A stretch of DNA of 64,000 nt, taken from assembly GCA_038874655.1 (NCBI GenBank), contig JAVZBY010000004.1, forward strand, positions 11,116-75,115, given 5' to 3'. Source of the stretch: Candidatus Woesearchaeota archaeon. GTDB lineage: Archaea; Nanobdellota; Nanobdellia; Woesearchaeales; GW2011-AR15. The notes below the pieces were generated by a model. It searched no databases and had not been told where the DNA came from. It was given only the letters and a program-made list of their open reading frames with translations. The position numbers were made by a program, and so were the translations under genes. Positions 30,655-38,290 of the stretch are shown here, piece by piece (position 1 is the first letter of the stretch; every line of letters begins with the position of its first letter).

Positions 30655-32232
30655 ATGTTAATGGCAAATTATTTTAAAAAATTTGTATCTTTTAAGATTA
30701 AAAGCAGAAATGTAAATTTATATTTTTCCATTCCAAAAAATAGTTCTGAATTTAATGAAGACTTACTAAATAAAGAATTTGAATTTTTTAAATCCATTTT
30801 ATTAAAACAGCATCCTTTTTTTCAAGATAATAAATTTAAAAATAATTTTGACTTAGCAACTTTGCCTAGAGATAATGAAGCTGAAGAAGAAGAAAGACTA
30901 TTAGCAAAGGATATTTTGCAACTAAAATTAAATTTTAAATATGTAAAAAATATAAATGAAATTAAAGCACCTTCAATAAAATATTTTGAAGAAAAAACTA
31001 TCATGCTTTTAGCACCTTTAATTGGACAAATATTAAAGAGTGATAATAATGTTATTCCTGATGGAGAAGGGGATTTCACAGTAAAAGTTAAAATTGGTAA
31101 AGCTATGGATTTAGGTGAAGAAAATTTAGCTATTGTTTATGAAACGCTCTCTGATTTAGAAACCTTATATCTAGGCTTTCATTATCAATTAATTGCAAGA
31201 TATCTAGTTTTTCCCTATTATCTTAGTGGTGAAAAAACATTTTTTAGTGCCTTTCCTATAAAATGTATAATACATGAGATTCAACATTATAAACAAATGA
31301 CTTTTACTAATTGGGAAAGAAAAGTAAAAAATGCCATAGAAGAAAAATTTACTACTCCTTCTAAATTAAGTCCAAATTCATTATTATTATTTTGGGCCTT
31401 ATGTGAATTATACAAAGAAGCTGAAGCATATTTCATGGATTCAAAAAAAAATCAAAGAAGAAAAATAGACATGAATTGGATCTATAATTTCAGAAAAAAT
31501 TTATTCACTATGGTCTCTCTTCCCAAAAATGAAAAAGAATTATGGGAATTTTATAACAAATATATCGATGAAAACACCTCTTTATATGTTAATGCTCTAT
31601 TAATGATGGCTACAATCTCTTTTGCTGAAGCAAAAAAAGATGGTCATCCTGAACAAATAATCTTATATAAAGATGTCAATCCAGAAATAAAAAAATTAGT
31701 TAATGAAATTGAAGTTATGATAAATGTTCTTTTAAATAATAATAGTGAGAATCTAAATCTTTTAAAAAATAAGATAATTGAATTATACAAATTACTAAAA
31801 CCTTACCTTCCTTATCTAATCGCTAACAAATTAAGAGAAAATATAAATAATCTCTATAATAATAATTTAACAATAATAAAAAAAGGATGCTTAATTATTA
31901 AAAATGAAGTTTTACCTTTTTATGATAGATTTGATTTGTCTAAATTAAATGAGATCATGACAAAAGAAAAAATATTTTATTATGGCCAAGTTCCTGAAAT
32001 TTATGTTAATAGAAGTTTTAATTTTGTAAAAAATTATGTTACATCTACTGGTAAATTATCTCCTGCAACACATTTCGGTTTTATAAAGAAATATGAAGAT
32101 GCATGCAACATTTTAAGAATAGACAGAAACAATAGAGTAATTGATTTATTTTTTTATAAAGAATTAAAAAAATTGACTCTCGAAAAAGATAAAAAAATGT
32201 CAGAACAAAAAGAGGCATATTTATTAGGATAA
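30655..32232 (+). CDS. Hypothetical protein with an HExxH motif
   Basis: 525 aa with no signal peptide. The only candidate catalytic motif is IIHEIQH. Confidence 0.35.
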   Translation: MLMANYFKKFVSFKIKSRNVNLYFSIPKNSSEFNEDLLNKEFEFFKSILLKQHPFFQDNKFKNNFDLATLPRDNEAEEEERLLAKDILQLKLNFKYVKNINEIKAPSIKYFEEKTIMLLAPLIGQILKSDNNVIPDGEGDFTVKVKIGKAMDLGEENLAIVYETLSDLETLYLGFHYQLIARYLVFPYYLSGEKTFFSAFPIKCIIHEIQHYKQMTFTNWERKVKNAIEEKFTTPSKLSPNSLLLFWALCELYKEAEAYFMDSKKNQRRKIDMNWIYNFRKNLFTMVSLPKNEKELWEFYNKYIDENTSLYVNALLMMATISFAEAKKDGHPEQIILYKDVNPEIKKLVNEIEVMINVLLNNNSENLNLLKNKIIELYKLLKPYLPYLIANKLRENINNLYNNNLTIIKKGCLIIKNEVLPFYDRFDLSKLNEIMTKEKIFYYGQVPEIYVNRSFNFVKNYVTSTGKLSPATHFGFIKKYEDACNILRIDRNNRVIDLFFYKELKKLTLEKDKKMSEQKEAYLLG

Positions 32233-32265: not shown

Positions 32266-33648
32266 TTAATTTTTTAGTTCATCTTCAAATATCTTATATA
32301 ATCTCTTCTTGAATTTCAAAGGTATTGTTCTAGAATCATGAATTCCGTAATATTTCTTTTTTAATTCCTCTGCTCTTGGTTCTACACTTTTTAATAATTC
32401 TCTTTTAAATTTATCTATTAGTTCTCCTTTAAAACCATTCTTATAAGCCAAGTAAAATGCATATAATTGCTCTTCTGAACCACAACCTGAAGCATCATAA
32501 CCGACAGAACAACCTTCTTTTTTTTCAACACCAAAACAAGAAAATAAATGCTCGTTTTCTTTAACTAACATGTCAGTCCTAAACCCAATACTTTTCGGAT
32601 CTAGATTATTAGCTAACATAAAAATATAAATTCTAGCACACTTAGAGCAATGCTCACACCAATAATGCTTTTTTCCATATTCATTTTCATCTGGAAAACA
32701 AGACATTTGATATTTACCAATTTCTTTATATCTCTTGTGAAGAATTTTCATAATAGCTAACTCATACAAAGGTTCAATAAAACTTGACACATTCATTCCT
32801 GTTAATAAAAAAGCCATATTATCCATTTCTTTTACCCAAAAACTTGTTTGATCATATACAGGATAACTTAAATATCCATCTTTATTAATATAAGTATCAT
32901 CGCAACTTTTTTCATCACCAAATAAAATATATTTTGCTTTTTCATAATAAGCTATGGGCATTATATCAAAGAAAAGTTCTGTCATTAAATGACCATATCC
33001 TAACTCTGTTCTAGGTAATTTCCAAAACCTATAATCATGAATTACACCTGTACTATTTTCAAAAGTATAAACCTTGACATTAAATTCTTTGGAAAATTTT
33101 TTAATTAATTCCTTTTTATATTCATTTTCTAATTTAACTGCATTATCTAACATAAAAACAGGAATTGGCTCTAAACCTAATTCTTTTGCTAGTGCAAATG
33201 TCAATAAACTATCTTTACCAAAAGACATATTTACTATTACTTTTTCTTTCAGATCAATCTTTTCTTTTGGATACTTTATTTCATAATTAGCAAAAGAAAC
33301 CTTCAAATTCAAAAAATTTTTAATTTGTAATTCTGTTGAAACATTATCTACATCAGCACAAAAACTTAAATTGTTTAAATGTGCATTAAATATTTGTTGT
33401 TTAAATAAAGGATAAGAAGTTTTAAATTCAATCTCTTTTAAATTTGAATTAGAAAATTTCCAATTTTGACTTAACATCTGTGGTAAGTGCAAAACTTTTA
33501 GATATGCATAATTATCAATAAAAATATCTTTGAGATATTCTGGATAATTATCCCATATATCTTTAGAATAAACTAAAAAAAAATCTTTTTCATCTATTGT
33601 TAATTTTAAACCATTATCTGTTTTTTTACAATCAACTTTCATTTTCAC
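32266..33648 (-). CDS. PP-loop ATP pyrophosphatase superfamily protein (PAPS-reductase/QueC-like) with C-x15-C-x2-C-x2-C motif, paralogue A
   Basis: MSFGKDSLLTFALA P-loop of the SGGKDS type. YQMSC..WCEHCSKCARIY cysteine cluster. Aligns along its whole length with the ORF at 35786..37183. Confidence 0.5.
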   Translation of the reverse strand: MKMKVDCKKTDNGLKLTIDEKDFFLVYSKDIWDNYPEYLKDIFIDNYAYLKVLHLPQMLSQNWKFSNSNLKEIEFKTSYPLFKQQIFNAHLNNLSFCADVDNVSTELQIKNFLNLKVSFANYEIKYPKEKIDLKEKVIVNMSFGKDSLLTFALAKELGLEPIPVFMLDNAVKLENEYKKELIKKFSKEFNVKVYTFENSTGVIHDYRFWKLPRTELGYGHLMTELFFDIMPIAYYEKAKYILFGDEKSCDDTYINKDGYLSYPVYDQTSFWVKEMDNMAFLLTGMNVSSFIEPLYELAIMKILHKRYKEIGKYQMSCFPDENEYGKKHYWCEHCSKCARIYIFMLANNLDPKSIGFRTDMLVKENEHLFSCFGVEKKEGCSVGYDASGCGSEEQLYAFYLAYKNGFKGELIDKFKRELLKSVEPRAEELKKKYYGIHDSRTIPLKFKKRLYKIFEDELKN

Positions 33649-33704: not shown

Positions 33705-34787
33705 CTACCTTCTCAACAAATTATCATTTCTTAACTCAGCACTTAATTCTTTTAATAATCCATATCTTTTCATTGCTTCATATAGAATGCTTAAAATAAT
33801 ATCATCATAACTCATTCCTGCTGTAAAACATGCTTTTGGAAATCTTGAATTTTCCAAAGGATCTGGCATCAATCCAGGCAATGCATTAATCTCTAAAACA
33901 TTCGGAATTCCATTTTTATCCAATCTTATATCTAATCTTGCTAAATCCACACATCCTAAAACTTTAAATGTTTTCAAAGAAACAGCTTTTATCATTCTTT
34001 CTAATTCTTTTGAAATTTGTGCTGGACAAACTACAGGATCAACTGGATTATTTGGATTATCCCAAATCCATTTAACCTCATAAGAATCAAACTTATTAAC
34101 ATGTTCTGGTAAATAATCAAAAGTCACTTCTACAATTGGCATTACTTTTGGAGGATTATTTCCCAATATTGCTACTGTAAATTCTCTACCCTCTAAATAT
34201 TCTTCAACTAAAGCTTCTTGATGATAATTATTTATAACAAATCTTAATTGTCTTCTTAATTCCTCTTCGTTCTTTACTAATGAATCATTTCTTATTCCTT
34301 TTGATGAACCTTCTGCATTTGGTTTTACAAAAAGAGGAAAATTTAACTCTGGATTTAATTTTTGATTCCAATTACTAAAAATCTGAAATTTTGGTGTTGG
34401 AACTCCATAATATTGTAAAATTTCCTTTGTTCTTCTTTTGTCCAAAGTTAAAGCTTGAGTAAAAACACCACTTCCAGTATAAGGTATTCCGAGCATATCT
34501 AAAATAGCAGGAACTTGACTTTCTCGAGAACCTCCATTTAAACCTTCAGCTATATTAAAAACAAAATCATAATTACCATATTTAATTTTTTCAAAAAAAT
34601 CTTCATTTGCCTCAACAATTTCAGCAATAAAACCCTTTTTTTCTAATGCATTTTTAATTGCAGTTGGAACTGCCAAATTATCATACTCAGCATAATAATC
34701 TTCTGGCATATTTGCAGGTGGCTCTTTTTTTAAATTAAAAGCAACTGCAATTCTTGGTATAGGGTTTTTAAAAACAAACTTTTTCAT
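33705..34787 (-). CDS. ddl: D-alanine--D-alanine ligase family ATP-grasp enzyme
   Basis: NIAEGLNGGSRESQVPAILDMLGIPYTGSGV..LDKRRTKEIL parallels the DdlB block [43 protein letters not shown]. C-terminal LEINALPGL ATP-grasp motif. Confidence 0.75.
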   Translation of the reverse strand: MKKFVFKNPIPRIAVAFNLKKEPPANMPEDYYAEYDNLAVPTAIKNALEKKGFIAEIVEANEDFFEKIKYGNYDFVFNIAEGLNGGSRESQVPAILDMLGIPYTGSGVFTQALTLDKRRTKEILQYYGVPTPKFQIFSNWNQKLNPELNFPLFVKPNAEGSSKGIRNDSLVKNEEELRRQLRFVINNYHQEALVEEYLEGREFTVAILGNNPPKVMPIVEVTFDYLPEHVNKFDSYEVKWIWDNPNNPVDPVVCPAQISKELERMIKAVSLKTFKVLGCVDLARLDIRLDKNGIPNVLEINALPGLMPDPLENSRFPKACFTAGMSYDDIILSILYEAMKRYGLLKELSAELRNDNLLRR

Positions 34788-34812
34788 TTATATAGACCTC
34801 CATTTTTATTTT

Positions 34813-35154
34813 TTAAAAATACTTATCCTCTATTTTAGTATTATTTATAATAGCATTAATTATTAAAAAAAATCTTTTAAAATGAGAATAAAAAACAAAA
34901 AATAAAATCAAAATAATTGTAAAAAGAAAAAAAATCTCTAACAAAATAGGATTAAACCCTTTATTAAGGATACTCAATCTATCTCTAAAAAACTGATTAA
35001 CAAAAAATTGACTATAAAAAAGATTTAAATTTAATAAAATTAGAAAATTATAAAATAGACTTGAATTTAAAAATCTAGAATTTAAACTAAACTTTATCAA
35101 ACCTTTTTTAAAAGAATCAATCCTGAAAGACAAACTCAATTGCCTATTTATCAT
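34813..35154 (-). CDS. Small hypothetical membrane protein
   Basis: 113 aa with two predicted TM segments. Lies between the ligase and the acidic peptide gene. Confidence 0.3.
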   Translation of the reverse strand: MINRQLSLSFRIDSFKKGLIKFSLNSRFLNSSLFYNFLILLNLNLFYSQFFVNQFFRDRLSILNKGFNPILLEIFFLFTIILILFFVFYSHFKRFFLIINAIINNTKIEDKYF

Positions 35155-35342
35155 TTAGCTTTTATCACTTCCTTTTTTATTTTTATATTTTGAGTTTATC
35201 TTTGAAATTTTCACAATAGTTATATTTCAAAAAATTATTTTTAACAAAAAAATAAAAGAAAAAGTGGTATATAAATTTATTCATTTTTTTTATCACTTAG
35301 CAAAAAAAATTATTTCTTTCATTAATCTAAAATTGTAAAAAT

Positions 35343-35543
35343 TTAATACTTATCCTCATCATCTTCATAATCTTCGTAATCTTCGTCATCATAGTCTTCA
35401 TCATCATAGTCTTCATCATTATAGTCTTCATCATCATAGTCTTCATCATAATCTTCATCGCTATACTCTTCGTCATCATATTCTTCGTCATCATATTCTT
35501 CAACAAAATCTTCATCTTCATAATCTTCTTCGTGTCTAGCCAT
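35343..35543 (-). CDS. 66-aa poly-acidic Tyr-repeat peptide (D/E-x-D/E-Y tandem repeats)
   Basis: SD GGAGGT 4 nt upstream of ATG 35543. Sequence MARHEEDYEDEDFVEEYDDEEYDDEEYSDEDYDEDYDDEDYNDEDYDDEDYDDEDYEDYEDDEDKY. Coded by 15-bp tandem DNA repeats. Confidence 0.5.
   Translation of the reverse strand: MARHEEDYEDEDFVEEYDDEEYDDEEYSDEDYDEDYDDEDYNDEDYDDEDYDDEDYEDYEDDEDKY
35360..35520 (-). repeat. Imperfect tandem array of a 15-bp unit (catcatagtcttcat family) within the acidic peptide CDS
   Basis: At least four near-perfect consecutive copies over 35387..35450, with degenerate copies on either side. Confidence 0.6.
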
Positions 35544-35547
35544 TTTA

Positions 35548-35553
35548 ACCTCC
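35548..35553 (-). promoter_or_regulatory. Shine-Dalgarno GGAGGT for the acidic peptide gene
   Basis: Minus strand reads ggaggt-taaa-ATG, identical to the RBS context at 15123. Confidence 0.55.
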
Positions 35554-35785
35554 ATCCACACAAATAACTGAAATTTTAGTAAAATCAAATCTATTTAAAT
35601 CTTATTTTTTTTTAGAAACTAAAAAAAATTTAAAACAAAATTTATAATTTGCAAAAAATAATTTACAAATAATTAAAAAAATAGAAACTTATTTAAAGAG
35701 AACCTTTAATAAATAATATTAAAAATATATTTTAAAAAATAGTAAAAAAATTAAGAATAAAAATTATAATTAAAAAAATTAAAAA

Positions 35786-37183
35786 ATGGATGAGCTTTCT
35801 ATAAAATACAGCATATCAAAAAAAGGATTTAATGTAAGAATAAATAATAAAACCTATTCAATAAAATATCCGCAAATAATTTGGGAAACTTTCCCAAAAA
35901 AAATTAAAAAAATAACAATTGAAAATTTTGTTTTTTTAACTACATTTACATTACCAATGCTCTTAAATAAAAGAAAAGCATTTTTTCACATGAATTCTCC
36001 TTTATTAGGAAGTTTTTTTGTTAAACCAATTTTATATTATATCCCTGCATGTGCTGATGAATATAACAGAGATAGCTTTACATTACTAAAAAGGTTTATA
36101 AACTCCACTTATGATTTTAAATCTTATAACCCAACTTTTTTTGATTATAATCCTAAAGTTAATTACAGAAGTGTTCATTTATTCACATTTGGAAAAGATA
36201 GCTTGCTTTCTTATTGCTTAGCAGAAGAATTGAAATTAAATCCTATTTTATTATATGTCGAAGAGCCTGACACAGCATATAAAGATAAAAATGGAAAAAT
36301 AAAAAAAACATATGAAAACAAGCACAAAGACATATTAATAAAAAAATTTAGTGAAGAATTTAAAAAACCTATTTATAAGATAAAACATCAATTAAGCTTA
36401 ACAAGAGAAGCTCCTCACTTAGGTGTTGATGAACCTGAATTACCTTATGGCTCTCAATTAACTGAATATGCTCTATTAACTATTCCCTTTAACCATTACT
36501 TTAAAGCAAAATACATGGTATATGGGAATGAAGCAAGCTGTTCAAGTACTTATGTAAATAAAGAAGGCTTTATAACAAACCCTGTTTATGATCAATCCGG
36601 TGAATGGGTAGTTGAAATTTCTAAGGTTTTGAAAGTATTGACAAAAAAAATGTCAGCAATTTCTTTAATAGAACCAATCCATGAATTATTAATCACAAAA
36701 ATTTTACACACTAGATATCCAAAGCATGCTAAATATCAGATGTCTTGTATGGCAGCAAACAATTATGCAAAATATTCAAGATGGTGTCATAATTGTTCAA
36801 AATGCGCTAGAATGTATGTTTTTTTAAAAGCATTTAATATTGATGTTAAATCCGTAGGTTTTAAAGAAGATATGTTCAAAAAAGAAAAAATGCATTTTTA
36901 CACTTTATTTGGTAAACCTGAAGAAAATGCATTACCTTATGATTTAGCAGGAGTTGGCAGAGATGAAATGTTATTAGCTTTTTATTTATCTTACAAAAAT
37001 GGTTCAAAAGGTTATTTGATTAAAGAATTTGAAAGAAAATTTTTAAAAGAAGCTGAACAAAGAAAAAATGAACTTTATAAAGAATTTTTCAGCATTCATG
37101 AATCTTTAACAATACCAAAAAGAATGCACAAAAAAATAATTAACATATTTAAAGAAGAAATAGAAAAACTAAATTTACCATAA
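35786..37183 (+). CDS. PP-loop ATP pyrophosphatase superfamily protein with C-x15-C-x2-C-x2-C motif, paralogue B
   Basis: LFTFGKDSLLSYCLA P-loop and YQMSC..WCHNCSKCARMY. Shared blocks with the 32266 ORF: PVYDQ, IEPxxELxIxKILH, AFYLxYKNGxKG. Confidence 0.5.
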   Translation: MDELSIKYSISKKGFNVRINNKTYSIKYPQIIWETFPKKIKKITIENFVFLTTFTLPMLLNKRKAFFHMNSPLLGSFFVKPILYYIPACADEYNRDSFTLLKRFINSTYDFKSYNPTFFDYNPKVNYRSVHLFTFGKDSLLSYCLAEELKLNPILLYVEEPDTAYKDKNGKIKKTYENKHKDILIKKFSEEFKKPIYKIKHQLSLTREAPHLGVDEPELPYGSQLTEYALLTIPFNHYFKAKYMVYGNEASCSSTYVNKEGFITNPVYDQSGEWVVEISKVLKVLTKKMSAISLIEPIHELLITKILHTRYPKHAKYQMSCMAANNYAKYSRWCHNCSKCARMYVFLKAFNIDVKSVGFKEDMFKKEKMHFYTLFGKPEENALPYDLAGVGRDEMLLAFYLSYKNGSKGYLIKEFERKFLKEAEQRKNELYKEFFSIHESLTIPKRMHKKIINIFKEEIEKLNLP

Positions 37184-37276: not shown

Positions 37277-38290
37277 ATGAAATTAATCAAAGTAAAAGGG
37301 ACTAATTATCAAATTGGTTATAAATTAGGCCACATATTTTCCTCTGCAATAAAATATAGAATAAAAAAATTTAAAATAACTAAAAGATTAATTGATTCTA
37401 AAAAAGATTATTTAGAAAAAACTTTAAAACTCTGTGAAATATACCCTAATTACTTACTTGAATTAAAAGGAATTTCTGATGGCTCTAATACAAATATTTA
37501 TGAAATTTTAATGCTTAATTTACTAGGATTACTTGATATAAAAAGATGTAGCACAATAGCATATAAAGGAAAAAATAGTTTTATTGCTCATAATGAAGAT
37601 GGGGACACTTTTGAAAGAAAAAAAGATTTTGCATTAATAAAATATGAAAAAATAATTAATGAAATAGAATACAAAAATAAAAATAATAAAAAAAACAAAA
37701 AATTTTATTTTTACTCATACTTTTATCCTGGTGAACTTTTAGGAGCAACATTTTCATGGAATTCTTATGGTTTAATAATAACTGTTAATTCAATAAGGTC
37801 TAGATTAAGCAATATTCCAAAACTGCCAAGAGTTTTTGTAGCAAGAGCACTATTAGAAGCAAAAACAATAAATCAAGCAATTAAAATAATAAAAAATTCA
37901 AAAAGCTCTGGTGGCTTGCATTATCTTATAATGAAAAAAACAAATAAAAAATCAAACAATGTAAAAGAAATAGTTTCAATAGAAAGATATCAGAATTCTA
38001 CTAGTATTGAAAAAATAAATAACATTTATATTCATACTAATCACTATATTCACAAAAAATTTCTAAATAAAACAAAGCCACATAAAAATTCTGTAATAAG
38101 ATATGAAAGATTAAAAGAATTAATAGAACTGCATAGAGATAAAATAATAAATGCAGATAAAGAAATTCTTTTAAAAATTATGAGAGATAGAAAAACAAAG
38201 CCAAACTCAATATACAACAAAAAAAATGATACCAATCAAACTCTTGCTACTTTTATAGCTTTGAAAAATAAAAAATATGTATTTTTATAA
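37277..38290 (+). CDS. Peptidase C45 / acyl-CoA:6-APA acyltransferase-like Ntn hydrolase
   Basis: N-terminal G.NYQIGYKLGH. Candidate nucleophile in KRCSTIAYKGKN, followed by IAHNEDGD, as in the C45/choloylglycine-hydrolase superfamily. Confidence 0.5.
   Translation: MKLIKVKGTNYQIGYKLGHIFSSAIKYRIKKFKITKRLIDSKKDYLEKTLKLCEIYPNYLLELKGISDGSNTNIYEILMLNLLGLLDIKRCSTIAYKGKNSFIAHNEDGDTFERKKDFALIKYEKIINEIEYKNKNNKKNKKFYFYSYFYPGELLGATFSWNSYGLIITVNSIRSRLSNIPKLPRVFVARALLEAKTINQAIKIIKNSKSSGGLHYLIMKKTNKKSNNVKEIVSIERYQNSTSIEKINNIYIHTNHYIHKKFLNKTKPHKNSVIRYERLKELIELHRDKIINADKEILLKIMRDRKTKPNSIYNKKNDTNQTLATFIALKNKKYVFL

What the first reader, a model, noticed from the sequence alone, without database searches (positions are those of the whole stretch)
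35343..35543. 66-aa poly-Asp/Glu peptide with 12 regularly spaced tyrosines, on a 15-bp tandem DNA repeat with a consensus SD
Translation from the ATG at 35543, which has GGAGGT 4 nt upstream, gives MARHEEDYEDEDFVEEYDDEEYDDEEYSDEDYDEDYDDEDYNDEDYDDEDYDDEDYEDYEDDEDKY. By my count about 45 of the 66 residues are Asp or Glu and 12 are Tyr, spaced every 4-5 residues, with a C-terminal Tyr. It has no hydrophobic core, so it is intrinsically disordered and polyanionic. I see four possibilities. It could be a substrate or scaffold for the adjacent ATP-grasp ligase, whose relatives RimK and TTL/TTLL act on acidic tails ending in Glu or Tyr. Tyr flanked by acidic residues is the classic context for Tyr sulfation or other Tyr modification, and the flanking PP-loop proteins resemble the PAPS/APS-binding family. 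It could be a DNA or polyphosphate mimic like Ocr/ArdA-type proteins. It could be a cation (Ca/Fe) binding envelope peptide. The underlying DNA is a tandem 15-bp repeat, so copy number may vary between strains.
Basis: partly seen in the sequence, partly recalled or inferred. Interest (0 to 1): 0.75.

Follow-up and report, generated by a model that had tools for sequence, protein, structure and literature searches.

The report
Conserved polyacidic peptide beside ATP-grasp operon
A real, undescribed small gene in tiny DPANN archaea encodes a disordered, almost purely acidic peptide that always ends in tryptophan or tyrosine and always sits in front of an operon of carboxylate-activating enzymes, so it is probably their dedicated partner or substrate, although its chemistry is still unknown.

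Summary
Window 35543..35343 (-) encodes a 66-aa peptide with 45 Asp/Glu and 12 Tyr. GGAGGT lies 4 nt upstream, and the gene sits on a 15-bp tandem repeat.

It is a conserved gene, not a chance ORF. I found six further distinct intact or partial homologues (26-57 aa) in Woesearchaeota-like contigs. Each has a GGAGG ribosome-binding site and a TATA-like box. Most start M-K-K-H, and all have an acidic body with sparse aromatics and a C-terminal Trp or Tyr. All lie 250-550 nt upstream, on the same strand, of a Ddl-like ATP-grasp ligase followed by a MurL-like (QueC-fold) PP-loop enzyme.

The regular tyrosines and the 15-bp repeat are specific to this window, so sulfation is unsupported. The closest relative carries a pseudogene. 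The same enzyme pair occurs in Bathy-, Thor- and Asgard archaea without any such peptide, so the peptide is a clade-specific addition.

Best guess, confidence about 0.35: it is a dedicated polyanionic substrate or scaffold that is modified at a terminus. Rivals are a non-covalent regulator or chaperone, an unrelated polyanion, and a decaying ORF.

In passing I found a covarying leader RNA in front of the operon in sister loci.

The parts
35343..35543 (-). CDS of the 66-aa polyacidic peptide (stop codon 35343-35345), ending ...DEDKY
   Evidence: Translation. Homologues with the same frame, start context and aromatic C-terminus in L083/L084, L086/L170, L162, L174, L173 and L053.
35548..35553 (-). 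Shine-Dalgarno sequence GGAGGT, 4 nt before the ATG
   Evidence: Sequence. A GGAGG-type site precedes all six intact homologues. It is degraded to AAGGGT in the L168 pseudogene.
35591..35603 (-). BRE/TATA-like box (AAGATTTAAATAG) about 48 nt upstream of the ATG; putative own promoter of the peptide gene
   Evidence: Sequence. Aligned, conserved AAAAAG-TTTAWATATTT boxes upstream of the homologues. That it acts as a promoter is inferred, not shown.
35380..35528 (.). 15-bp tandem repeat (10.3 copies, 80% matches) encoding the D-D-E-D-Y units
   Evidence: Tandem Repeats Finder. Absent from the homologues, and the orthologous L168 region is about 30 codons shorter, so this is a recent lineage-specific expansion.
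35302..35309 (-). T8 run 34 nt after the stop codon; putative archaeal terminator of the monocistronic peptide transcript
   Evidence: Sequence. T-runs follow the stop codon in L086, L162, L174 and L053 as well. Inferred.
35266..35282 (-). Second TATA-like box (GAATAAATTTATATACC); putative promoter of the ATP-grasp operon
   Evidence: The same AATAAATTTAWATA box sits between peptide and operon in L086, L162, L173 and L174, and a similar box lies in front of the operon in the peptide-less L175.
34813..35154 (-). orf113, a doubtful ORF in the AT-rich 555-nt leader between peptide and ATP-grasp
   Evidence: No family hit. Only a 12-residue patch is conserved with L168, although the flanking ATP-grasp is 93% identical. 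In sister loci a structured RNA occupies this position.
33705..34787 (-). Ddl-like ATP-grasp ligase (360 aa), first enzyme of the operon downstream of the peptide
   Evidence: Pfam Dala_Dala_lig_C at 7e-38. NCBIfam Ddl models score below their cut-offs (199.7 vs 243). The nearest PDB sequences are DdlB and VanA. In the alignment most DdlB substrate and catalytic positions have equivalents (K144, S151, R255, D257, E270, N272 invariant; E15, K215, S281 read from the blocks; Y216 is replaced by W).
32266..33648 (-). MurL-like PP-loop protein 'MurLB' (460 aa), second gene of the operon
   Evidence: Its only family hit is NCBIfam MurL_Xanthomonadales, E 5e-6. It has the SFGKDS PP-loop and four invariant Cys. 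It follows the ATP-grasp gene in every peptide-bearing locus that extends that far.
35786..37183 (+). MurL-like PP-loop protein 'MurLA' (465 aa), divergently transcribed from the peptide
   Evidence: 28 of 29 family members hit only the MurL model. AlphaFold2 model pLDDT 93.5. Best PDB folds are QueC 3bl5 and Cap9 9nto. The MurLA+C45 pair lies next to the peptide in L083 and L086 too.
37277..38290 (+). C45-family Ntn acyltransferase/hydrolase (337 aa, net charge +39)
   Evidence: Pfam AAT at 5e-29 and NCBIfam C45_proenzyme at 154 bits, above the 85-bit cut-off. Net charge.

Best explanation
Shown:
- Window 35543..35343 (-) is a genuine gene with its own candidate promoter. It belongs to an undescribed family of intrinsically disordered polyanionic peptides (26-66 aa).
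- The family is defined by a GGAGG ribosome-binding site, usually an M-K/A-K/R-H start, a body of about 60-70% Asp/Glu with a few scattered aromatics, and an obligatory C-terminal Trp or Tyr.
- The family is co-inherited with one clade of Ddl-like ATP-grasp ligase operons (ATP-grasp, then a MurL-like QueC-fold adenylating enzyme, with or without a GNAT and two more ATP-grasps) in Woesearchaeota-like DPANN archaea.

Inferred:
- The peptide is the dedicated macromolecular partner of these carboxylate-activating enzymes, most likely a substrate or scaffold.
- The conserved free terminus, above all the alpha-carboxylate of the C-terminal aromatic residue, would be adenylated by the MurL-like enzyme. 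Characterised MurL acts on the C-terminal residue of a peptidyl substrate.
- That terminus would then be epimerised, amidated or extended with amino acid(s) supplied by the ATP-grasp ligase.
- The acidic body would serve as a docking handle, and the C45 Ntn hydrolase would be a possible release or trimming enzyme.

The regular Tyr spacing of this particular copy is a by-product of a recent 15-bp repeat expansion, not part of the mechanism.
For: (1) Conservation.
- There are seven distinct sequences in genomes of 25-40% GC: window, L083/84, L086/170, L162, L174, L173 (partial) and L053.
- All share the acidic frame, an ATG preceded by GGAGG, and a terminal W or Y.
- In 1.9 Mb of loci, 9 of the 10 ORFs with at least 50% D/E end in W or Y.

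(2) Linkage.
- The gene always lies upstream of the ATP-grasp-MurLB operon on the same strand, while the other flank differs: MurLA+C45 in window/L083/L086, a tRNA in L162, a PAPPA-domain gene and then L21e/Rpb4 genes in L174, and zinc-ribbon ORFs in L053.
- On an ATP-grasp tree the peptide-bearing loci form one clade. All 6 informative members have the gene (5 intact, 1 pseudogene), and L053 sits in the sister clade.

(3) Transcription layout. A TATA-like box, a strong SD, a T-run after the stop codon, and then a second promoter-like box for the enzymes. This resembles the usual layout of precursor or scaffold genes; that comparison rests on general knowledge.

(4) Neighbouring enzymes. All of them activate carboxylates or handle amide bonds: a Ddl-like ATP-grasp, two MurL-like PP-loop enzymes and a C45 Ntn hydrolase.

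(5) Precedents.
- QueC-fold enzymes Cap9 and QatC act on disordered protein termini (PMC13279940).

(6) Decay in a relative. In L168 the gene has lost its SD, His4 and open frame, whereas the window copy keeps all of them.
Against: - The ATP-grasp + MurL-like pair occurs in most of about 160 loci (Bathy-, Thor-, Hermod-, Promethearchaeota, CPR bacteria) without any such peptide. There it is paired with a ThrC-like PLP enzyme or a KamA aminomutase. The ancestral substrates are therefore probably small molecules.
- In the alignment the ATP-grasp has equivalents of most DdlB substrate and catalytic positions, including Glu15, which in Ddl (from general knowledge) holds the free amino group of the acyl-donor amino acid. 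That fits an amino-acid + amino-acid ligase better than a peptidyl-carboxylate ligase (this N-terminal part of the alignment is uncertain).
- The closest relative has intact enzymes but a dead peptide gene.
- Enzyme net charge does not track peptide presence, and ATP-grasp and MurLB are near neutral.
- There are no expression, mass-spectrometry or binding data, and no complex could be modelled.
Confidence: 0.35

Rival explanations
1. Non-covalent polyanionic partner. The peptide is not modified. It binds and regulates, chaperones or neutralises something made by or belonging to the cluster. Candidates are the very basic MurLA or C45 proteins, or a cationic (e.g. beta-lysine-containing) peptide product. 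The model is acidic disordered inhibitors or chaperones such as prothymosin-alpha or SSB-tail mimics.
For: - Only charge, sparse aromatics and the termini are conserved; length and sequence drift freely.
- The gene has its own candidate promoter and is dispensable in L168.
- C45 (+39) and MurLA (+23) are strongly basic.
- Sister operons carry a KamA-type 2,3-aminomutase that would make cationic beta-amino acids.
- L053 has a 21-aa polybasic ORF right after the acidic one.
Against: - There is no KamA in the window or in the peptide-bearing stand-alone clade.
- MurLA charge is similar in loci without the peptide, and C45 is only +5 in peptide-bearing L086.
- The consistently linked enzymes, ATP-grasp and MurLB, are not basic.
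- A strictly aromatic last residue is more typical of a specific terminus-recognition site than of bulk electrostatics.
Confidence: 0.25
2. General cellular polyanion unrelated to the enzymes. It would be a nucleic-acid or polyphosphate mimic, a chaperone for histones or ribosomal proteins, or a cation buffer. Its position next to the operon would then reflect shared descent within one DPANN clade.
For: - The acidic-plus-aromatic composition resembles known DNA-mimic tails and acidic chaperones (from general knowledge).
- It is a separate transcription unit.
- The window, L083 and L086 share wider synteny (L15e/S6e/RadC, ScpA), so part of the linkage is uninformative.
- The short acidic ORF in L097 lies beside MgtE-like and CutA-like genes (the MgtE/CutA assignments are by eye, not from a family search).
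Against: - The linkage survives rearrangement of everything except the operon (L174, L162, L053).
- No second copy exists elsewhere in the 64-kb window.
- Acidic ORFs are otherwise essentially absent from 1.9 Mb of loci.
Confidence: 0.15
3. In this particular genome the ORF is a decaying or neutrally drifting remnant. Its length is inflated by slippage of a stop-free 15-bp unit, and it no longer has a function.
For: - The orthologue in the nearest relative is a pseudogene.
- This lineage has also lost the structured leader RNA and the GNAT + 2 ATP-grasp genes found in L086 and L174.
- A repeat of GAT/GAA/TAT codons stays open by construction.
Against: - Unlike L168, the window copy keeps a perfect GGAGGT, the ATG, His4 and a ...DKY end, and L053 shows matching ...DKY/...DKW motifs.
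- The repeat copies have diverged to 80% identity without acquiring a stop codon.
- An identical copy is present in a second assembly.
Confidence: 0.1
4. cis-acting upstream ORF or leader peptide. Translation of an Asp/Glu/Tyr-rich uORF would sense charged tRNA pools and attenuate the downstream operon.
For: A short ORF followed by a T-run lies upstream of a biosynthetic-type operon, with extreme codon bias toward three amino acids.
Against: - A separate conserved promoter-like box lies between the ORF and the operon, and the same type of box precedes the operon in loci without the ORF.
- The conserved N- and C-terminal residues argue for a peptide product.
- 26-66 codons is long for an attenuator peptide.
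- Leader-peptide attenuation is not established in archaea (from general knowledge).
Confidence: 0.05
5. Substrate for tyrosine sulfation or another Tyr modification that uses the flanking PP-loop proteins as PAPS/APS-type enzymes.
For: Tyr flanked by acidic residues is the classic sulfation context (from general knowledge). The flanking proteins have an SxGxDS PP-loop.
Against: - The tyrosine array is not conserved: homologues have 1-4 scattered Y/F, for example one Tyr in L083.
- The PP-loop proteins match only MurL and fold like QueC/Cap9, not PAPS reductase or ATP sulfurylase.
- No sulfotransferase is present in the locus.
Confidence: 0.02

Closest known systems
LysW/ArgW amino-group carrier proteins with LysX/ArgX ATP-grasp ligases (description from general knowledge)
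   Same: A small, very acidic ribosomal protein encoded with an ATP-grasp ligase. The chemistry happens at its C-terminus, and its acidity serves to dock it onto the pathway enzymes. A Trp lies near the C-terminus (EDWGE).
   Different: LysW is a folded zinc-ribbon protein, and its terminal Glu gamma-carboxylate is the attachment point. Its ligase is RimK/LysX-type. Here there is no Cys and no fold, the last residue is Trp or Tyr, the ligase is Ddl-type, and no LysW model is hit.
PEARL scaffold peptides (TglA, AmmA, BhaA) for amino-acid-derived natural products
   Same: A ribosomal peptide used only as a handle. An amino acid is added to, or modified at, its C-terminus and then cleaved off (PMC9016710, PMC11117183). 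A C-terminal Trp is central to the pyrroloiminoquinone pathways.
   Different: PEARLs are LanB-like and use aminoacyl-tRNA; none is present here. The scaffolds are not polyacidic. The enzymes here are a Ddl-like ATP-grasp and MurL-like PP-loop proteins.
MurD2/MurL alternative peptidoglycan route of Xanthomonas
   Same: A ligase adds an L-amino acid, and then an ATP-dependent enzyme is proposed to adenylate and epimerise the new C-terminal residue (PMC8788868). The 460-aa proteins here are collinear remote homologues of MurL.
   Different: Scores are far below the MurL equivalog cut-off (25 vs 700 bits). The partner is an ATP-grasp, not a Mur ligase. The hosts are wall-less DPANN archaea. No ribosomal peptide is involved in the Xanthomonas pathway.
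QueC-family protein modifiers Cap9 (type IV CBASS) and QatC (QatABCD)
   Same: A QueC-fold PP-loop enzyme works on the flexible terminus of a partner protein (PMC13279940, bioRxiv 10.1101/2025.04.06.647259). Cap9 is the second-best structural match of MurLA.
   Different: Those enzymes modify an N-terminal Gly motif with a deazaguanine, in anti-phage systems. Here there are no PADLOC hits, no TGT-like partner, and extra N- and C-terminal domains.
Alpha-tubulin C-terminal tail with tubulin tyrosine ligase, and ribosomal protein S6 with RimK (from general knowledge)
   Same: An ATP-grasp ligase acts on a polyacidic C-terminal tail. The tubulin tail ends in an aromatic residue (-EEY).
   Different: Those are tails of large folded proteins, and the ligases are TTL- or RimK-type. 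The only TTL signal here is a marginal Pfam hit in a sister fusion protein.
Acidic C-terminal tails ending in an aromatic residue that mimic DNA (SSB ...DDDIPF, T7 gp2.5) and disordered acidic proteins (DSS1/Sem1, prothymosin-alpha) (from general knowledge)
   Same: A disordered polyanion whose terminal or embedded aromatic residue plugs into a partner pocket.
   Different: These have no genetic link to ligase or epimerase operons. They are either tails of larger proteins or eukaryotic.
Graspetide (microviridin-type) RiPP precursors
   Same: A ribosomal peptide encoded next to an ATP-grasp ligase.
   Different: Graspetides need Ser/Thr/Lys acceptors paired with Asp/Glu in a core motif, plus a RimK-like macrocyclase. 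Acceptors are absent or not conserved here, and the ligase is Ddl-like.

Membership tests
New acidic-peptide family (as defined here) | GGAGG Shine-Dalgarno site + ATG, about 60-70% Asp/Glu, C-terminal Trp or Tyr | tested here: met
   The window and six homologues all show it. 9 of 10 acidic ORFs in 1.9 Mb end in W or Y.
New acidic-peptide family (as defined here) | Located upstream, on the same strand, of the stand-alone Ddl-like ATP-grasp then MurL-like operon | tested here: met
   Window order is peptide, leader, ATP-grasp, MurLB. The same order holds in L086/L170, L162, L174, L173 and L053. The clade is monophyletic.
New acidic-peptide family (as defined here) | N-terminal M-K/A-K/R-H | tested here: met
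   MARH in the window; MKKH in L083, L086, L162 and L174. It is absent in L053 (MDYD) and mutated to MARN in the L168 pseudogene.
LysW-type amino-group carrier protein | Zinc-ribbon fold with CxxC pairs | tested here: not met
   There is no Cys in the peptide, no Pfam or NCBIfam hit, and no predicted structure.
LysW-type amino-group carrier protein | C-terminal Glu (EDWGE) as the attachment residue, with a LysX/RimK-type ligase | tested here: not met
   The C-terminus is Tyr or Trp in all members. The ligase matches Dala_Dala_lig_C, not RimK.
PEARL / scaffold-peptide pathways | LanB-like peptide aminoacyl-tRNA ligase in the cluster | tested here: not met
   No such domain is found among the window neighbours.
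PEARL / scaffold-peptide pathways | Chemistry at the scaffold C-terminus followed by proteolytic release | not testable with these tools
   A conserved C-terminal residue and a C45 Ntn hydrolase are present, but there are no biochemical data.
Graspetide precursor | Conserved Thr/Ser/Lys acceptors paired with Asp/Glu, and a RimK-like macrocyclase | tested here: not met
   The window peptide has 1 Ser, 0 Thr and 1 Lys, none of them conserved. The ligase is Ddl-like.
Tyrosine-sulfated peptide | Conserved Tyr in an acidic context, plus a sulfotransferase and PAPS supply | tested here: not met
   The Tyr array is unique to the window. No sulfotransferase is present, and the PP-loop proteins are MurL/QueC-like.
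Ocr/ArdA-type DNA mimic | A folded protein of more than 100 aa that displays charges in a B-DNA-like pattern, in a mobile-element or anti-restriction context | tested here: not met
   The peptide is 26-66 aa with no predicted fold. The context is chromosomal, between housekeeping genes. There are no defence-family hits. Charge mimicry itself is not testable here.
[quoted passage not shown] | Score above the NCBIfam equivalog cut-off | tested here: not met
   24.8-25.2 bits vs a cut-off of 700. 28 of 29 relatives hit the model, best E 1e-12. They are remote homologues only.
[quoted passage not shown] | PP-loop ATP-pyrophosphatase core, about 450 aa, ATP-dependent action on a C-terminal carboxylate | tested here: inconclusive
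   The SFGKDS motif and four invariant Cys are present, and the fold core is QueC-like. Activity is untested. No MurL structure or sequence was available for direct comparison.
D-alanine--D-alanine ligase, for the ATP-grasp | NCBIfam Ddl cut-off and Ddl substrate-site residues | tested here: inconclusive
   The best model scores 199.7 vs a cut-off of 243. Most DdlB substrate and catalytic positions have equivalents (K144, S151, R255, D257, E270, N272 invariant; E15, K215, S281 read from the alignment blocks), but Y216 is replaced by W and L282 by R, and there is a loop insertion. It is a Ddl-like amino-acid ligase of unknown specificity.

The most novel reading that the evidence does not exclude
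The peptide would be the first archaeal example of a ribosomally made polyanionic scaffold or tag. Its C-terminal aromatic residue would be adenylated and epimerised (giving a C-terminal D-Trp/D-Tyr) and/or extended by a Ddl-type ATP-grasp together with a MurL/QueC-fold enzyme. That would be a new class of terminus-directed peptide modification. It would also give a first function to an enzyme pair that is widespread in Bathy-, Thor- and Asgard archaea.
Probability: 0.25. Interest if true: 0.85.

Novelty: new variant of a known kind. Interest (0 to 1): 0.62.

Why it matters
- The peptide family is not in Pfam, NCBIfam, PHROG-type resources or the literature I could search.
- The enzymes it travels with, a Ddl-like ATP-grasp plus a remote MurL homologue, form an uncharacterised cassette. 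That cassette is found in many archaeal lineages, including cultured Asgard archaea, and in CPR bacteria.
- If the peptide is their substrate or scaffold, it offers an easy experimental handle: a 40-66-mer that can be synthesised or co-expressed. That would help reveal what this cassette does and whether MurL-type ATP-dependent epimerisation acts on ribosomal peptides.
- If it is instead a non-covalent polyanion, it would be a rare prokaryotic example of a stand-alone disordered acidic regulator.
The eye-catching tyrosine periodicity is a repeat-expansion artefact, and the conserved signal is the aromatic C-terminus.

Tried and rejected
- Sequence search with the peptide in the 5.8-billion-protein collection returned nothing, because low-complexity scoring kills it. 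For the same reason I ran no further search on it.
- The first metagenome scan, with MurLB alone, found nothing. The second, with an alignment, worked.
- Net charge of ATP-grasp, MurLA, MurLB and C45 was compared between peptide-bearing and peptide-less loci. There was no correlation.
- KamA aminomutase was searched for in the window and is absent.
- Rfam gives a weak C/D-box sR5 hit inside the repeat (26 bits vs a gathering score of 40, E 0.006). I rejected it: it is caused by repeated ATGATGA, and no CUGA D box is present.
- No known RNA family is found in the leader.
- orf113 was tested as a possible conserved small protein. Only a 12-aa patch is shared with L168, so I treat it as doubtful.
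- The L053 zinc-ribbon ORF with an acidic tail looked LysW-like by eye, but it hits only generic zinc-ribbon models below their cut-offs.
- Defence-system models give no hits.
- The AFDB fold libraries were unavailable, so a full-length structural comparison with bacterial MurL could not be made.
- A profile of the MurL-like family finds no solved structure by sequence.
- Literature searches for this enzyme and peptide combination found nothing relevant.
Full report
**1.
The reverse strand of 35343-35543 encodes MARHEEDYEDEDFVEEYDDEEYDDEEYSDEDYDEDYDDEDYNDEDYDDEDYDDEDYEDYEDDEDKY. It is 66 aa with 26 Asp, 19 Glu and 12 Tyr, and the last residue is Tyr. GGAGGT (35553-35548) lies 4 nt before the ATG. 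Tandem Repeats Finder reports a 15-bp unit with 10.3 copies and 80% matches at 35380-35528. The window has 25% G+C and carries archaeal housekeeping genes (L15e, S6e, TFS, ScpA). Close homologues of its proteins are annotated as Candidatus Woesearchaeota. No other stretch of the window in any frame is comparably acidic. An independent assembly (Logan, SRR30574052) contains an identical copy, called as a gene. A single-sequence AlphaFold2 run gives no secondary structure and pTM 0.12, consistent with disorder.

**2. The neighbours.**
- Downstream on the same strand lie a 555-nt AT-rich leader (with a doubtful 113-aa ORF), a Ddl-like ATP-grasp ligase (33705-34787) and a 460-aa protein, 'MurLB' (32266-33648).
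- Divergently upstream lie a 38%-identical paralogue, 'MurLA' (35786-37183), and a C45 Ntn acyltransferase/hydrolase (37277-38290).
- The two 460-aa proteins have an SFGKDS PP-loop and four invariant cysteines. They hit no Pfam family.
[quoted passage not shown] 28 of 29 relatives do the same, best E 1e-12.
- A high-confidence model (pLDDT 93.5) has a core most similar to QueC (3bl5) and to the QueC-family protein modifier Cap9 (9nto), followed by other PP-loop ATPases.
- MurL is an ATP-dependent epimerase proposed to adenylate the alpha-carboxylate of a C-terminal residue (PMC8788868).
They are carboxylate-adenylating enzymes.
- The ATP-grasp is nearest to DdlB and VanA. In the alignment it has equivalents of most DdlB substrate and catalytic positions (K144, S151, R255, D257, E270 and N272 are invariant; E15, K215 and S281 are read from the alignment blocks). 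It scores below the Ddl cut-offs.

**3. The peptide is a conserved gene family.**
Scanning loci fetched around homologues of the enzymes gave further members.

| Locus | Peptide |
|---|---|
| L083/L084 | MKKHRNEDEEYEDEEDLDSEEDEELDDDDNDDDDTGDEDW |
| L086/L170 | MKKHGKNEEEENYENEFEEESDDDDGDYDSDDDDETDEEETEEESGGDEW |
| L162 | MKKHNKHEEDEEAAEGEEEDLEEDEDTDDDGDYDEEEDTEEDEW |
| L174 | MKKHSKDEEEEFQDEEETEKENEDYEVMEDSDDDDFDDDDSDDDDSDEYDDEEEEEW |
| L173 (cut by the contig end) | ...DEDDDDDDYEEDTGDDAW |
| L053 | MDYDEEYEDYDDEEEDKYDDDEEDKW |

- All intact copies have a GGAGG-type Shine-Dalgarno site.
- Nearly all have a conserved TATA-like box upstream. Those inspected have a T-run after the stop codon.
- These genomes range from 33 to 40% G+C, so the composition is not an AT-bias artefact.
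- In 1.9 Mb of loci only ten ORFs of 10-90 aa have at least 50% Asp/Glu. Nine of them end in Trp or Tyr.
- Conserved features are the N-terminal M-K/A-K/R-H, an acidic body with a few scattered aromatics, and an aromatic last residue.
- The regular tyrosines and the 15-bp DNA repeat are not conserved. They are unique to the window and represent a recent expansion.

**4. Linkage.**
- In every case the peptide gene lies 250-550 nt upstream, on the same strand, of the ATP-grasp then MurLB operon.
- The other flank varies: MurLA+C45 in the window, L083 and L086; a tRNA in L162; a PAPPA-domain gene and then L21e/Rpb4 genes in L174; zinc-ribbon ORFs in L053.
- On an ATP-grasp tree the peptide-bearing loci form one clade of stand-alone ligases. 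Five members have an intact peptide gene, one has a pseudogene, and one is uninformative. L053 sits in the sister clade, in which the ligase is fused to a KamA-type radical-SAM aminomutase.
- Loci just outside this clade (L005, L012, L171, L175) lack the peptide.
- A second TATA-like box between the peptide and the operon is also present in peptide-less loci. This indicates that the peptide is its own transcription unit.

**5. Evidence that limits the interpretation.**
- The closest relative (L168, ATP-grasp 93% identical) has an orthologous pseudogene, MARNEKDYEE*YYEEVDDDFDDSNED*EYLDEEE**. Its Shine-Dalgarno site is degraded, and TAA is a normal stop codon in that genome.
- The MurL-like + Ddl-like pair occurs in 97 of 162 loci. 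These come from Bathy-, Thor-, Hermod-, Promethearchaeota, Aenigmatarchaeota and CPR bacteria. The pair is usually found with a ThrC-like PLP enzyme, or in DPANN with KamA, and without any acidic peptide.
- The ligase family includes proteins of cultured Asgard archaea.
- The ancestral cassette therefore probably makes a small D- or beta-amino-acid-containing peptide, and the acidic peptide is a clade-specific addition.
- Retention of the Ddl Glu15 equivalent also fits a free amino-acid acyl donor.
- Enzyme net charges do not correlate with peptide presence.

**6. Mechanism.**
The best-supported reading has confidence of about 0.35. The peptide is the dedicated macromolecular partner of these carboxylate-activating enzymes and is modified at a terminus.
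- Most plausibly, a MurL-like enzyme adenylates the alpha-carboxylate of the conserved aromatic last residue. MurL's characterised substrate is a peptidyl C-terminus (PMC8788868).
- Epimerisation, amidation or extension would follow, with the ATP-grasp supplying amino acid(s). C45 is a candidate releasing enzyme.
- The analogues are LysW carriers and PEARL scaffold peptides (PMC9016710, PMC11117183).
- QueC-fold enzymes that act on disordered protein termini are a further precedent (PMC13279940).
- All of these steps are inferred.
- The rivals are: a non-covalent polyanionic regulator or chaperone (0.25), an unrelated general polyanion (0.15), a decaying ORF in this genome (0.10), a cis-acting uORF (0.05), and Tyr sulfation (0.02).

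**7. Comparison and novelty.**
- The peptide fails the defining features of LysW (no zinc ribbon, no terminal Glu, wrong ligase class).
- It fails those of PEARL systems (no LanB-like enzyme).
- It fails those of graspetides (no acceptor residues).
- It fails those of Ocr/ArdA mimics (no fold, wrong context).
- The flanking enzymes are remote relatives of MurL and Ddl, not members of those families.
- No paper in the searchable library describes this peptide or this enzyme set.
- I rate it as a new variant of the 'small ribosomal peptide plus ATP-grasp ligase' theme, with an undescribed peptide family and an uncharacterised epimerase-like partner.

**8. By-product.**
- In sister loci the space between the peptide (or the upstream gene) and the first operon gene holds a conserved element of about 125 nt with two hairpin domains.
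- A covariance model built from six sequences also found it in three loci outside the training set: L004 (in front of KamA), L012 and L084.
- 95% of cells are paired. 14 of 24 pairs show double changes. 0 of 500 shuffles reach the observed values, and slid controls give about 45% pairing.
- It is not in Rfam and is absent from the window.
- It may be a new archaeal cis-regulatory RNA.

Noticed in passing
L173 235-361; L169 25-154; L086 4762-4890; L162 923-1042 (= L087 25-144); L174 4822-4941; L175 4840-4962; L004 3321-3450; L012 6759-6878; L084 1-92 (-). No counterpart in window 34788-35342.: A conserved structured RNA of about 125 nt lies directly 5' of the first gene of the ATP-grasp/KamA operon. 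It has two hairpin domains, and the second is followed by a U-run. 95% of cells are paired, 14 of 24 pairs have compensatory changes, and it is not in Rfam. It is a candidate riboswitch or attenuator in DPANN archaea.
   Followed up: partly
L041 45-2138; L005 5750-7876 (-); L053 1242-3328 (frameshifted); separate genes in L004 3532-4560 and L175 6052-7323: In sister lineages the Ddl-like ATP-grasp is fused to, or adjacent to, a KamA-family radical-SAM 2,3-aminomutase (Radical_SAM + LAM_C + Dala_Dala_lig_C). This implies a beta-amino acid substrate. The window has no KamA.
   Followed up: partly
About 100 loci, e.g. L017 8001-10362, L032 279-3703, L070, L071: The MurL-like + Ddl-like gene pair is a widespread uncharacterised cassette in Bathy-, Thor-, Hermod- and Promethearchaeota and in CPR Roizmanbacteria. 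A divergently encoded ThrC-like PLP enzyme accompanies it in 58 loci, and an AIG2/GGCT-like protein (identified by eye) in 12. The ligase family includes proteins of Lokiarchaeum ossiferum and Promethearchaeum syntrophicum.
   Followed up: partly
L168 206-316: An orthologous pseudogene of the acidic peptide sits in the closest relative (ATP-grasp 93% identical). It has two in-frame TAA codons, has lost GGAGG, and has His4 changed to Asn.
   Followed up: yes
L053 770-835 and 898-1050: 130 nt after the acidic peptide lies a 21-aa polybasic ORF (MAQKKKKVAAKKPAAKKKGKK) with a strong AAGGAGGT site. It is followed by a 50-aa zinc-ribbon ORF with an acidic tail (...YLGDEDD). The zinc-ribbon ORF hits only generic zinc-ribbon models. 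No polybasic ORF is seen next to the other peptide genes.
   Followed up: partly
L097 4452-4514: A 17-20-aa mini acidic ORF (...SEEWDEEEFDEDEEEW) follows a GAGGTGA site. It lies 2 kb downstream of a distant MurL-like/ATP-grasp/GNAT cluster, next to genes that look MgtE-like and CutA-like by eye. It could be a remote family member or a chance ORF.
   Followed up: partly
L002, L006, L085 and the P0004 contig: Proteins 67-69% identical to MurLA occur as orphan genes on contigs with typically bacterial neighbours, some of them binned as Chitinispirillaceae or Leptospirales MAGs (RND efflux, His biosynthesis). This suggests horizontal transfer out of DPANN archaea.
   Followed up: no
L086 7381-10015; L174 7431-9988; L003 9405-11880: Fuller versions of the operon add a RimI-like GNAT acetyltransferase and two more Ddl-like ATP-grasp ligases after MurLB. 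The window lineage has lost these and has an unrelated 525-aa ORF (30655-32232, no family hit) in that position.
   Followed up: partly
L053 4657-5805: A peptidase S58 (DmpA/BapA-type aminopeptidase) follows MurLB in L053. The window has a C45 Ntn hydrolase near the cluster instead. Both are amide-bond hydrolases, and both families are regarded as self-processing (from general knowledge).
   Followed up: no
window 35388-35437 (-): A weak Rfam hit to the C/D-box sRNA sR5 lies inside the coding repeat (26 bits, below the gathering score of 40). It is caused by the repeated ATGATGA and has no D box. I judge it spurious.
   Followed up: yes
window 34813-35154 (-): orf113 was called as a gene in a public assembly. 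It is AT-rich and low in complexity, and shares only a 12-aa patch with the equivalent region of L168. It is probably a non-coding leader.
   Followed up: partly
L083 300-345; L162 600-640; L174 4470-4500: The peptide promoter region is better conserved than the coding region: TTTAWATATTTC.G.CTTTATACGTTT is shared by L083, L162 and L174. This suggests a regulator binding site.
   Followed up: no
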